From the NCBI RefSeq assembly GCF_013315695.1, contig NZ_CP054353.1: 64,000 bases of DNA. One strand, given 5' to 3'. How positions within the stretch are numbered: position 1 is the stretch's first letter; every line of letters starts with the position of its first letter. Origin of the DNA: Escherichia coli (GTDB taxonomy: Bacteria > Pseudomonadota > Gammaproteobacteria > Enterobacterales > Enterobacteriaceae). The position numbers are program-made. Shown here piece after piece: positions 23,701 through 26,700 of the stretch.

Positions 23701-26700
23701 TGCAATTGTGGTTATTGCAGAAACAACAAAAAAGAATAAAAACAATAAAATCCGGGGTGTGTTGCCCGGACAAAACAGTTTTCTGATATTCATCGGAGTA
23801 TATCGACAACATTATTATGAAGAGAACAGGATAATAAAAATCAGAAATTATCTGTAAAACAAATAACAGACAACTCTGCAGTAATAGACTGCAGGGTATT
23901 TCTGTTTAATTGCAGAAGATATTCAATTATCTTAATTACAGAATATACGCAATTATCGTTCAGGAGCAGTGTCGTCAGAAGTTATAAGTCATACCAAGCA
24001 TGATGGGTTGGTGACCATAAAGAACCAGCTAAAGCTGTACTCCTGTACTCAGTATATACACGACGACTTAATTTCGTTTTCTCTATTTCATGCTCCACTC
24101 TTTTTACCGTTTCACTAACATCAGAAACATTTTCAATCACAAAACTCTTACGTTCATAAATAAGCCTGCTTAATGTATTTATATCTAAAAATTTCGCATC
24201 AAAAGAATCAATCTGTACTGTTTTTTCTTGTACTGACATCTTCTTTTCCTGGCTGGTATGGCAAGTGACGGAGACAAGAGAAACGTTTTAAGCTCAGTTA
24301 TCTCCGCCATCACTTTCCACGAATGACAAGTAATTTTGCCTATTTTAAAACCATGCAAAAGGCAGGGTAAAAGGAGAAAATTCGATCGAATCGATCGACA
24401 AAATCGATCATACATGATGAAGATTTTTTATCGAATCCATAAAAATAGTGACAGCTAACCGGCGTTGCAGGAACAGTCAGAAATGGGCGTTTGGGAAAGA
24501 GCCATAGCACTACGTCGTCGCTGACATAGAGGAACTGTGCTTTGTTGATAAGATCCTTTATACGGCAACCAATCCATTGGACAAAAGATGAACTACGTAA
24601 TCACCGGGTTCTCACTGACGAAATACAGAAGTTAATGACACAACTGTGCCATGTACCTTGTACAACAGCGGTGGAAAGCTCTCAGAACAATGGAATTGCA
24701 GAAAGGTGTTAAAACGATGAAAGCCTTCATACCCAAATCGAATGTAAGAACGGCAGTAAAGACTGAATTGCGTAACCTTGCAGTAGCTCGAGTATTACAC
24801 TGCATAGTGTGCAGGGTTATCTCCCATTGAGAAAATATCGGCGCCAGCGAATAACGTCACCTTAGATGTAGCAGTTGCCAAATAGTGACTCAAGGGCGGG
24901 CTTACCGCATACACTGACACTTAGCGGATCGACAGAATATTATTAGCAGATCATCACTGAACGCTACGTAATTATCGTAATAAAGGCTTTTTCTGGCTAC
25001 CAGGAAGACCTGACATGGCTCTGCTCTGGAACCAGGCCGCAGGAAGCATCAATCTGGAGTTTATCAGCTACTGGAATTCCGGTGTATTGGCAGCCCCTGA
25101 TAATCACCTGACCCACGAAGAGCGCTCTGCTTTGCAGAAACTCTGGGGCGGTTTGGAGACAGGAGATGCCATTTAACGATTATAGGACGTTCTGATAAAG
25201 CCCATGATTTTACCTCCGCCTTAATTAACTGTTTTCTTTCTGAAGAAAAAATTGTCTGGTGGCAATCAGGTGGCATTTTCCCGGATCCCTGGCCCGCTAA
25301 TATATCCCGGCTGAACAGACGATTAACGCGATATTGCAAATATGGCATCTGAATCGATCATGATTTGGCGGCATCCATCTCCGTTCACAGTTTGGCATGC
25401 TTCCGATCATTGATTGGCATCCAGCCAGTCACTCCGGGAATTAACTCTTTTCACCGCAGTCTCCATTGCCGTGTTTAAACCAATGGAGACGTCAATGTCC
25501 AAAAAGAGAATATCCAGGAGCACTATGGATACCTGTTTTAAGATCCTTCAGCTCAAGTTCGACCAGAAGCTGGCTAACCGTTGTATCGGACTTGCAAAAC
25601 ACCAATGGGGATTGATCTCTATTTTGCGACACAGACGCATTATCAATACATCGATGGTGCGATCAAATACCTCAGTGGTCTCACCGTGGATCAAATCCAG
25701 CAATTGCTCACAGATTAAGACTCGTCGGGAGTTTTGAGCCAACGCCAGCAGTAACCCATATTCACCTTGAGTGAAATCTACAGGCTGTTGATGAGCATCA
25801 ACCAGCACGTAACGGTCCGGGATCAAGTGTCCAGCCGTTAAAAAAACCACTCTACTACCCTGCTCGACCTAAGCCTCGGCGTTCAGCCGCCTGAACGGGT
25901 ATGGCAAGGGTGAAAAGAAACAGCATCCCCACAGTACCGACCAGACGACAGGATGATGCTGGAACAGAAAGCATTCGCACCTCCCTTAGAATTAGACAGT
26001 GCGTACAGGATACGTAAGACAGGGTGACGGGGCGGCGATAAACTCTATTTACAAAGCTGAAAATTTTCTGACGATGAAAAACTATTCAACAAGGTTATCT
26101 GAGGCGTTAAAATAACCAGCTCGATTAACGACTAACTTGAGGTGAATATGAATTTAAAAAATATAATTTTAAGTACTGTTTTATCAATCGCTAGTTGTCA
26201 TGCCTTGGCTGTAGGTAATTCTCAAATAGCGCTATCTAACCTTCATGTGGAAAACACCCCAAGTGGGACGAAGGCAATTGTGGGTTATGCTGAAAATAAA
26301 TCAAACTCTGTTGTCAAAAATGCTTATGTAAAATTTAATCTTTTAAAAGATGGAGTCGTTATCGGTCAAACAATCGACACAGCATCCAATCTTGAACCAG
26401 GCCAGAAGTGGAAAATACAAGCCTTCATTAACACCTTTAACGGCAGCCCTGACTCATTCAAAGTCACTGAAGTGAAAGTAGTTAACTGAGTGTGCCACTG
26501 ACTGCCGCTACAAAAATTATATGGAGGTCCTGGGAAAGGGCAGCTCTGCACCAGGCCGCCATAAAGGAATCAAATACTCTCGTTGTTTATGACACCGAAG
26601 AACTTTTATGTGAGATTACCCAGCGGCCCCGAGTTTCCCCTGAAGTCGGTGAGTTGCAGTTTCACCGTGCGGATCGCGTAGTGGACATTTCGCACAAGTC

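What the first reader, a model, noticed from the sequence alone, without database searches (positions are those of the whole stretch)
25548..26489. Divergent pair: short ToxR/OmpR-type winged-helix protein and a small secreted protein
The about 100-aa minus-strand ORF has a clear wHTH pattern but lacks any receiver, transmembrane or periplasmic domain. It is either a stand-alone wHTH regulator or the N-terminal remnant of a ToxR/CadC-like membrane regulator. It shares a 290-bp intergenic region with a signal-peptide-bearing 115-aa protein of unknown function.
Basis: inference. Interest (0 to 1): 0.45.

Follow-up and report, generated by a model that had tools for sequence, protein, structure and literature searches.

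The report
Dead regulator fragment beside ICE relic gene
The "winged-helix regulator" is a broken, non-functional fragment of an ordinary two-component response regulator, and the small secreted protein next to it is an unrelated leftover gene from a decayed conjugative element, so this is island debris and not a regulatory pair.

Summary
Both ORFs exist at the stated coordinates, in a pheV (tRNA-Phe) pathogenicity island of E. coli. They are not a functional pair.

The minus-strand wHTH ORF (25548-25850) is a chimera. Its core, window 25605-25880, is residues ~120-218 of a ~239-aa OmpR/PhoB-type response regulator, which is the C-terminal DNA-binding domain and not a ToxR/CadC N-terminus. It has no receiver domain, lacks the wing hairpin, carries a +1 C frameshift (25819-25821) and two stops. 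Its last 19 codons are antisense to an IS21-family fragment. RefSeq already marks it as a pseudogene.

About a third of the "290-bp intergenic region" (94 nt) is the first 31 codons of an ICE RAQPRD gene (25881-25974).

The plus-strand gene (true start 26148, 113 aa) is intact. It encodes an FxLYD-domain protein with a signal peptide and a confidently predicted Ig-like beta-sandwich. An 89%-identical allele, and relatives at 42-46%, sit in intact conjugative elements between RAQPRD and TraD, a published cargo hotspot. No response regulator is nearby in any of them.

The locus is ordinary mosaic decay. The one open question is what FxLYD proteins do on conjugative elements.

The parts
25335..25592 (+). 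Left end of an IS21-family (ISSso4-like) element, including the first 22 codons of istA (ATG at 25525). It is truncated internally.
   Evidence: 91% identity to L023 3501-3753, which is the IS left end plus the start of the annotated istA.
25593..25604 (.). 12-nt junction of unassigned origin between the IS21 fragment and the response-regulator fragment.
   Evidence: No homology to either partner.
25605..25880 (-). Response-regulator pseudogene fragment, residues ~120-218 of a ~239-aa OmpR/PhoB-type RR. It holds the linker, the N-terminal beta-sheet and helices a1-a3 of the wHTH. The receiver domain, the C-terminal wing hairpin and the tail are absent. There are two TAG stops in the linker.
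   Evidence: tblastn E 5e-30, 60-73% identity, ending exactly at NPH. No remnants of the missing parts in any frame. PGAP calls 25605-25842 a pseudogene, 'frameshifted; missing N-terminus and C-terminus'. PDB alignments stop at position ~87 of the ~110-residue OmpR DNA-binding domain.
25819..25821 (-). CCC run carrying a +1 C insertion, which is the frameshift inside the RR fragment.
   Evidence: Deleting one C restores a continuous alignment, GxxSGFFNGWTLDPDRYVLVD...NPH, to the intact RR. The score rises from 241 to 278.
25548..25850 (-). It is a chimera of frameshifted beta-sheet codons, wHTH helices a1-a3 and a 19-codon tail (WCFASPIQRLASFWSNLS) read from the junction and antisense istA.
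25881..25974 (-). 5' stub (31 codons, the signal-peptide region) of an ICE RAQPRD-family gene. It is cut after ...PVQAAE and fused to the RR fragment.
   Evidence: 84% DNA identity to intact ICE loci L005-L009, whose gene hits TIGR01690 ICE_RAQPRD at 2.2e-31. PGAP annotates the matching region in ~33 complete genomes as an intact RAQPRD family ICE protein.
25975..26147 (.). Native ICE intergenic region upstream of the FxLYD gene. It has a promoter-like site (TCAACA-16-TAAAAT, 26086-26113, + strand) and the SD GAGG (26139-26142).
   Evidence: Collinear with the 172-bp intergenic of L005. Both hexamers and the SD are conserved. The promoter call is a consensus match only.
26148..26489 (+). Intact FxLYD-domain gene of 113 aa, with an N-terminal signal peptide and a six-strand Ig-like beta-sandwich.
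   Evidence: NCBIfam NF038353 at 4.1e-18, 65 bits against a cutoff of 23. PGAP WP_001049880.1. dN/dS 0.13 against the ICE allele. AF2 mean pLDDT 87.5.
26490..26593 (.). 3' flank of the FxLYD gene still homologous to the ICE. ICE homology ends at 26593, where group II intron and IS3 debris begins.

Best explanation
The locus is a junction of three unrelated relics inside an E. coli GI-pheV pathogenicity island.

(1) The wHTH ORF is a dead fragment of a classical OmpR/PhoB-type two-component response regulator. Only the linker and part of the C-terminal DNA-binding domain survive. The receiver domain was lost where the fragment is fused to an ICE gene stub at ~25881. The wing hairpin and C-terminus were lost at 25605, next to a truncated IS21-family element. 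A +1 frameshift and two stops interrupt what remains. It has no regulatory function.

(2) The segment 25881-26593 is a 713-bp relic of an integrative conjugative element of the PFL_4xxx family. I equate this family with PAGI-2/pKLC102/ICEEc2 from my own knowledge and from PMC11537424. The segment holds the 5' stub of the RAQPRD gene, the native intergenic region and one intact cargo gene from the RAQPRD-TraD hotspot.

(3) That cargo gene encodes a Sec-exported FxLYD-domain protein, a small periplasmic Ig-like beta-sandwich. It is transcribed from its own ICE-derived promoter region.

Shown: the anatomy, the homologies, the intactness of the FxLYD gene and its purifying selection. Inferred: export and expression of the FxLYD protein. 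My committed but weakly supported guess (about 0.2-0.25) is that it acts at the envelope in conflicts between mobile elements, in an exclusion-like role. The adjacency of the two ORFs is an accident of deletion and rearrangement.
For: RR fragment:
- Pfam Trans_reg_C covers only profile positions 2-61 of 77. NCBIfam aligns the ORF to positions ~145-211 of VirG, PhoB, TorR and OmpR.
- The closest relatives are full-length REC+wHTH proteins.
- tblastn homology is confined to 25886-25605. No remnants of the missing parts were found.
- Repairing one C restores the alignment.
- The tail is antisense to an IS21-family istA.
- PGAP flags it as a pseudogene.
- E. coli alleles all share the same 3' breakpoint but carry varied extra lesions: an IS insertion at 25740, indels, deletions, and fusions to the RAQPRD stub.

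ICE relic:
- blastn of intact ICE loci matches only 25881-26593, at 84%.
- The flanking genes in those loci are ICE_RAQPRD, TIGR03758, TIGR03745, TIGR03747, TraD and PFL_4695.
- PGAP names the matching region RAQPRD in ~33 complete genomes.
- pheV and pheU are ICEEc2 insertion hotspots (PMC11537424).

FxLYD gene:
- NF038353 hit. dN/dS 0.13, with 14 nonsynonymous of 38 changes, P 7e-8 under neutrality.
- It occupies the same slot in the E. coli ICE (89%), a metagenomic ICE (46%) and a Citrobacter replicon (42%). Relatives also lie beside conjugative pilus or transfer genes in Pantoea and Arsenophonus, and beside ICE-family genes on the MPF_G conjugative replicon pY89 in P. aeruginosa.
- The slot is the published GI-Hotspot 8 (PMC12629846).

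No response regulator neighbours the gene in any of these contexts.
Against: - The direct intact ancestor of the RR fragment was not found. The best intact relatives are only 70-76% identical, so the source of the fragment is unknown.
- No transcription or protein data were available, so expression of the chimeric ORF cannot be formally excluded. Some alleles even fuse it in frame to the RAQPRD signal peptide (P0065).
- The pair is adjacent in 104 complete genomes. This could superficially look like conservation, but all copies are >=99% identical and represent one inherited island module.
- The function of the FxLYD protein rests on context only. Fold searches gave only generic Ig/FN3-like matches.
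- About 40 island variants have lost the FxLYD gene, so it is dispensable.
Confidence: 0.9

Rival explanations
1. The ORF is a functional stand-alone wHTH regulator, a receiver-less OmpR-type protein, that controls the divergently transcribed secreted-protein gene through the shared intergenic region.
For: The ORF is open for 100 codons and passes the Pfam Trans_reg_C threshold. The two ORFs are adjacent in 104 complete E. coli genomes.
Against: - The domain lacks the wing hairpin and its first beta-strands are out of frame.
- The tail is antisense IS21.
- Alleles carry many different disruptive lesions.
- The FxLYD gene keeps its own ICE-native upstream region and occurs without any RR in intact ICEs and plasmids.
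- The 'intergenic region' contains a gene stub.
Confidence: 0.03
2. The ORF is the N-terminal remnant of a ToxR/CadC-type membrane-bound regulator whose TM and periplasmic parts decayed downstream.
For: ToxR and CadC share the same wHTH superfamily (my own knowledge). No receiver domain is present in the ORF.
Against: - All best matches place the ORF at positions ~145-211 of receiver-containing RRs.
- The closest relatives at 70-76% identity are REC+wHTH proteins. The sequence upstream of the wHTH matches the RR linker and first strand, FNGWTLD.
- The downstream DNA is an IS21 fragment, not TM or periplasmic remnants.
Confidence: 0.01
3. The FxLYD gene is a backbone function of the ICE, for example a dedicated entry-exclusion or mating-pair accessory protein, and not optional hotspot cargo. 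The island retains it because it still excludes related ICEs.
For: - It sits in the same slot in three ICEs whose backbone proteins are 55-87% identical while FxLYD is 39-45% identical. That fits co-divergence with fast evolution.
- It is separately transcribed on the opposite strand inside transfer regions, and lies next to conjugative pilus or transfer genes in Pantoea and Arsenophonus.
- It is under purifying selection.
Against: - Other E. coli ICEs of the same family carry unrelated genes in the slot (RM8082).
- The slot is a documented variable hotspot (PMC12629846).
- In pY89 the gene lies in a different region.
- About 40 island variants lost it.
- It has no match to known exclusion or defence models.
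Confidence: 0.2

Closest known systems
[not shown]
   Same: The wHTH helices a1-a3 are 60-76% identical, and the linker and first beta-strands are recognisable once one base is repaired.
   Different: There is no receiver domain, no wing hairpin and no C-terminus. The fragment is frameshifted, fused to foreign DNA at both ends, and has no kinase nearby. It is a pseudogene fragment, not a member in working order.
ToxR/CadC-type membrane-anchored wHTH regulators
   Same: They share the same wHTH superfamily (my own knowledge).
   Different: The alignment register is that of a C-terminal RR effector domain. No TM or periplasmic remnants are present. A defining feature was tested and not met.
PFL_4xxx-family integrative conjugative elements. 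I equate this NCBIfam family with PAGI-2/pKLC102/ICEclc/ICEEc2 (MPF_G) from my own knowledge. [quoted passage not shown]
   Same: Window 25881-26593 is 84% identical to the RAQPRD 5' end, intergenic region, FxLYD gene and 3' flank of intact E. coli ICEs. The island sits at tRNA-Phe, a known ICEEc2 target.
   Different: Only 713 bp survive. There is no T4SS, TraD, relaxase or other ICE gene anywhere in the 64-kb window. It is a relic, not an element.
FxLYD domain family (NCBIfam NF038353), distantly DUF3426 (the periplasmic domain of Caulobacter ZitP)
   Same: A strong NF038353 hit. 10 of 67 family members weakly hit DUF3426. Both are extracytoplasmic beta-rich domains. In ZitP the DUF3426 domain recruits CpaM for pilus assembly (PMC5182063).
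   Different: Here the domain stands alone behind a signal peptide, without the zinc ribbon and TM of ZitP. The link to DUF3426 is weak (best E 6e-4). No function is known for any FxLYD protein, and no paper in the searchable library mentions the name.
Small stand-alone Ig/FN3-like exported proteins of E. coli, such as IrmA (PDB 5ek5)
   Different: Only 8% identity, and the scores are in the range of generic Ig-like matches. This is no evidence of a shared function.

Membership tests
OmpR/PhoB-family response regulator | C-terminal winged-helix effector domain (Pfam Trans_reg_C) | tested here: met
   46 bits against a cutoff of 26.2, but only profile positions 2-61 of 77.
OmpR/PhoB-family response regulator | N-terminal receiver domain with phospho-acceptor Asp | tested here: not met
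   No receiver homology in any frame upstream of ~25880. That DNA is an ICE RAQPRD stub.
OmpR/PhoB-family response regulator | C-terminal beta-hairpin wing completing the wHTH | tested here: not met
   Homology stops at NPH (25605). The ~25 C-terminal residues are absent in all frames, and the downstream DNA is IS21-family.
OmpR/PhoB-family response regulator | Uninterrupted reading frame | tested here: not met
   A +1 C at 25819-25821 and two TAG stops in the linker. PGAP flags it as a pseudogene.
OmpR/PhoB-family response regulator | Cognate histidine kinase encoded nearby | tested here: not met
   No kinase is annotated within ~12 kb on either side. This feature is not strictly defining, since orphan RRs exist.
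ToxR/CadC-type membrane regulator | wHTH at the N-terminus followed by a TM segment and a periplasmic domain | tested here: not met
   The ORF aligns to positions ~145-211 of receiver-containing RRs. RR linker sequence lies upstream. The downstream DNA is an IS21 fragment with no TM or periplasmic remnants.
FxLYD domain family (NF038353) | Match to the curated domain model above its cutoff | tested here: met
   65 bits against a cutoff of 23, E 4.1e-18, covering model positions 2-71 of 71.
FxLYD domain family (NF038353) | Extracytoplasmic location, by N-terminal signal peptide in the small members | tested here: inconclusive
   Sequence features fit: a K in the n-region, a hydrophobic core, and ALA|V. 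59 of 67 relatives are similar. AF2 leaves residues 1-26 disordered. No dedicated signal-peptide predictor or experiment was available. The lipobox-like IASC motif is not conserved (5 of 67).
PFL_4xxx / PAGI-2 / pKLC102 / ICEEc2-type ICE | DNA derived from the conserved RAQPRD-TraD region of such an ICE | tested here: met
   84% identity over 713 bp to intact ICE loci, with flanking genes named by NCBIfam. PGAP gives RAQPRD annotation for the matching region in other genomes. The equation of the PFL_4xxx models with the named ICEs rests on my own knowledge.
PFL_4xxx / PAGI-2 / pKLC102 / ICEEc2-type ICE | Complete transfer machinery (T4SS genes, TraD, relaxase) present | tested here: not met
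   tblastx of five ICE or MGE loci against the whole window finds nothing outside 25881-26599.
Conjugative entry/surface-exclusion proteins | Presence in a recipient lowers acquisition of the cognate element | not testable with these tools
   Only context supports this: a separate transcription unit within transfer regions, fast divergence and export.

The most novel reading that the evidence does not exclude
FxLYD-domain mini-proteins are a recurrent, separately transcribed envelope factor of conjugative elements. They occur in the RAQPRD-TraD hotspot of MPF_G ICEs and beside conjugative type IV pilus genes. They would act in the periplasm as an exclusion or immunity factor against incoming conjugation or pilus-dependent attack. 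GI-pheV islands would then have kept this one ICE gene because it protects the tRNA-Phe site, or the cell, from related ICEs.
Probability: 0.15. Interest if true: 0.5.

Novelty: already known. Interest (0 to 1): 0.14.

Why it matters
As a regulatory finding it does not matter. The wHTH ORF is annotation noise, already flagged as a pseudogene in RefSeq, and it should not be counted among E. coli regulators or virulence-island transcription factors.

The base-level anatomy does show how a GI-pheV island was assembled. A PAGI-2/ICEEc2-type conjugative element at tRNA-Phe was whittled down to 713 bp. This supports the view that such pathogenicity islands descend in part from ICEs.

The only forward-looking value is the FxLYD family. 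It is small (115 clusters at 50% identity), uncharacterised and exported. It is repeatedly embedded in conjugation modules and is under purifying selection. That makes it a cheap candidate for exclusion or transfer assays.

Tried and rejected
1. I first read 'RMLSVPASSCRLVGTVGM...' in another minus-strand frame as decayed receiver helices a4-a5 (note 1). I rejected this after alignment with intact ICEs showed it is the signal-peptide end of the RAQPRD gene. Shuffle tests also found no significant receiver remnant.
2. The 130-165-aa 'wHTH-only' relatives from the protein search looked like a stand-alone family. They are split gene calls of full-length RRs in error-prone assemblies.
3. A search for C-terminal wing remnants downstream in all frames was negative.
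5. PADLOC gave no match and PHROGs gave nothing meaningful. The Pfam SSB_1 and PriB hits are below cutoff and were disregarded.
6. Literature: no paper in the searchable library mentions FxLYD in this sense. The ICEEc2 paper (PMC2944505) is not held.
7. A test for post-decay purifying selection (window against ATCC 8739: 4 synonymous and 1 nonsynonymous change, P 0.01) is confounded. All differences cluster in the gene while 503 bp of flank are identical, which suggests a recombination patch.
8. I ran no further search on finding the RR's exact ancestor. The pseudogene verdict does not depend on it.
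Full report
**Where we are.** The window is an E. coli chromosome segment. tRNA-Phe (GAA) lies at 16632-16707. In a 99.97%-identical RefSeq record it follows nupG-speC-yqgA, and after it come a P4-type integrase, IS debris, pap genes, iha, sat and iutA/iuc. This is a GI-pheV-type ExPEC island. The window is collinear with NZ_OZ547117.1 around the finding, and RefSeq annotation there transfers with an offset of +12899.

**Observation check.** A 100-codon minus-strand ORF (25548..25850, GTG start) and a plus-strand ORF ending at 26489 both exist. The minus ORF passes Pfam Trans_reg_C at E 5.8e-12, but only over profile positions 2-61 of 77. The plus ORF hits NCBIfam FxLYD_dom (NF038353) at E 4.1e-18. 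Its likely start is the ATG at 26148, giving 113 aa. It is preceded by GAGG at 26139-26142, it is the PGAP start, and it is conserved in a diverged allele.

**What the wHTH ORF is.** NCBIfam aligns it to positions ~145-211 of ~230-aa response regulators such as VirG, PhoB, TorR and OmpR. That is the C-terminal effector domain.

- The closest relatives (70-76% identity) first appeared as 130-165-aa proteins. They begin with the end of a receiver domain (…GLEMGADDYIGKPF…), and their loci show a Response_reg ORF immediately upstream. They are split calls of ~239-aa REC+wHTH regulators.
- An intact 235-aa paralog is annotated in ~408 complete E. coli genomes, including O157:H7.
- tblastn of reconstructed full-length relatives onto the window gives one solid match, to reference residues ~126-218 at window 25886-25605 (E 5e-30). 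It stops exactly at …KIEINPH.
- The motif FNGWTLD lies in another frame. Deleting one C from the CCC run at 25819-25821 restores a continuous alignment from the linker to NPH, and the score rises from 241 to 278. Two TAG stops sit in the linker.
- No remnant of the receiver domain or of the C-terminal wing hairpin exists in any frame.
- Alignments to solved OmpR, RstA and YycF DNA-binding domains end at about residue 87 of ~110. The region after the recognition helix is therefore missing. That this region is the wing hairpin comes from established knowledge of the OmpR fold.

**What lies beyond the 3' breakpoint.** Window 25335-25592 (+ strand) is 91% identical to the left end of an IS21-family (ISSso4-like) element, including the first 22 codons of istA. 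After a 12-nt junction, the RR fragment starts at 25605. The ORF's last 19 codons (WCFASPIQRLASFWSNLS) are read from the junction and antisense istA.

**What lies beyond the 5' breakpoint.** Intact ICE loci carrying an 89%-identical FxLYD allele match the window only at 25881-26593, at 84% identity. The match begins inside the neighbouring minus-strand gene. In the ICEs this gene is an ICE_RAQPRD protein (TIGR01690, E 2.2e-31), flanked by TIGR03758, TIGR03745, TIGR03747, TraD and PFL_4695 genes. The window keeps its first 31 codons (25974-25881, MLSVPASS…PVQAAE). The sequence then switches abruptly to RR linker. PGAP independently annotates the matching region as an intact RAQPRD gene in ~33 complete E. 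coli genomes.

- RR linker remnant, 25851-25880.
- RAQPRD stub, 25881-25974.
- A native 173-bp ICE intergenic region, 25975-26147.

**Decay.** RefSeq already labels 25605-25842 a pseudogene, 'frameshifted; incomplete; missing N-terminus and C-terminus'. All E. coli alleles share the same 3' breakpoint. They differ by extra lesions: an IS insertion at 25740, internal frameshift pairs, deletions, and in-frame fusions to the RAQPRD stub. ATCC 8739 has a further 40-bp deletion in the stub. This is the pattern of neutral decay.

**The FxLYD gene.** It is intact in 111 of the 112 complete E. coli genomes that have it, always on the chromosome.

- Against the ICE allele, dS is 0.42, dN is 0.055 and dN/dS is 0.13. 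There are 14 nonsynonymous changes of 38, P 7e-8 under neutrality.
- The exhaustive HMMER search finds a small family: 115 representatives at 50% clustering, mostly 105-125 aa. 59 of 67 aligned members have a signal-peptide-like N-terminus.
- A lipobox-like motif is present here (IASC) but is not conserved (5 of 67).
- AlphaFold2 with the family alignment gives a confident six-strand beta-sandwich, with mean pLDDT 87.5 and ~97 over residues 30-113.
- BFVD returns uncharacterised phage proteins.
- Ten of 67 members weakly hit DUF3426. That domain is the periplasmic part of Caulobacter ZitP, which recruits CpaM for pilus assembly (PMC5182063). This is a weak lead only.
- PADLOC has no match.

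**Context elsewhere.** Every informative context is a conjugative or mobile element, and none has a response regulator beside the gene.

| Element | Identity to window protein | Position of the FxLYD gene |
|---|---|---|
| E. coli ICEs | 89% | RAQPRD <- \| FxLYD -> \| <- TIGR03747-TraD |
| Metagenomic ICE | 46% | Same slot, with extra cargo |
| Citrobacter replicon | 42% | Same slot, alone |
| Pantoea ICE | 43% | Between a type IV pilus cluster and ssb/topB |
| Arsenophonus plasmid | 42% | Between TrbM/KikA/MpfK and PilV |
| P. aeruginosa pY89 (MPF_G, MOBH) | 32% | Beside ICE-family genes |
| Element with ArdC, integrases and UmuDC | 40% | Within the element's end region |

[quoted passage not shown] Another E. 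coli ICE carries unrelated genes there. Backbone proteins of the three same-slot ICEs are 55-87% identical, against 39-45% for FxLYD. pheV and pheU are known insertion hotspots for ICEEc2, a pKLC102/PAGI-2-family ICE (PMC11537424).

**Distribution of the 'pair'.** 104 of 5,426 complete genomes carry both pieces adjacent, all at 99% identity or more, as one inherited island module. About 40 more keep the RR fragment and stub but have lost the FxLYD gene.

**Mechanism.**
- Shown: the RR fragment cannot fold into a complete wHTH and has no input domain, so it does nothing.
- Inferred: the FxLYD gene is transcribed from its ICE-native upstream region. A promoter-like TCAACA-16-TAAAAT at 26086-26113 and the SD are conserved in the ICE allele. 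The product is exported by Sec and acts as a small periplasmic binding module.
- My best guess for its role, from context only, is an envelope-level function in conflicts between mobile elements, such as exclusion or immunity. I put this at about 0.2-0.25.

**Verdict.** This is an ordinary, already-annotated mosaic junction: an IS21 fragment, an RR pseudogene fragment, an ICE gene stub and one surviving ICE cargo gene. It is not a regulator-target pair and not a ToxR/CadC relic. Interest is low. The only loose end worth an experiment is the function of FxLYD proteins on conjugative elements.

Noticed in passing
window 26148-26599 compared with L012 (ATCC 8739) 7548-7999: Between the window and ATCC 8739, the RR fragment, stub and intergenic region (503 bp) are identical. 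Five differences (4 synonymous, 1 V->I) fall inside the FxLYD gene and 2 more in its 3' flank. This suggests a small recombination patch.
   Followed up: partly
window 19829-23793: A phosphoethanolamine-transferase gene is split by an ISEc22 (IS66-family) insertion at 20892-23227. It is intact in ATCC 8739, which also carries an extra ~1.06-kb segment with an outer-membrane-protein gene that is missing at window 24005/24006.
   Followed up: partly
window 24973-25352: A CobW-family GTPase pseudogene (C-terminal part, frameshifted) lies directly against the IS21 left end. Intact relatives at ~66% DNA identity occur on many E. coli plasmids.
   Followed up: no
window 26594-27720: Debris of a group II intron reverse transcriptase fused to IS3-family transposase fragments. 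ORF 26662..26955 (-) is a chimera of the two.
   Followed up: no
L025 (E. coli RM8082) 9249-10090: About 33 complete E. coli genomes carry near-complete ICEs of this family (traD is frameshifted in RM8082). Their RAQPRD-TraD slot holds unrelated hypothetical genes (178 aa and 71 aa) instead of FxLYD, which confirms that the slot is variable.
   Followed up: partly
L013 (E. coli O157:H7-type) 4938-5645: The intact paralogous response regulator (WP_000805929.1) has no adjacent histidine kinase. It is an orphan RR next to a lyxose isomerase, aldolase, kinase and ABC transporter cluster and yjcS.
   Followed up: no
window 26160-26187 (- strand): The best sigma-70-like consensus match in the region (TTGATA-16-TATATT, 10 of 12) lies inside the FxLYD signal-peptide codons. 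It points toward the RAQPRD stub and may be the residual promoter of the lost ICE T4SS operon, or an AT-rich chance match.
   Followed up: no
window ~46223-46433: RefSeq annotates a pseudogene fragment of a 'TOTE conflict system archaeo-eukaryotic primase domain-containing protein' (coordinates transferred from L024 with offset +44701).
   Followed up: no
window 33098-38907: The window carries 5.8 kb of pap-region DNA that the otherwise near-identical AF3 record lacks, where that record has an IS1-associated deletion. The window therefore comes from a different strain.
   Followed up: partly
window 25593-25604: The 12-nt junction (TGCAAAACACCA) begins with the same TGCAAA as the IS21-family left terminus at 25335. 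It may be a second terminal-repeat-like sequence or a coincidence.
   Followed up: no
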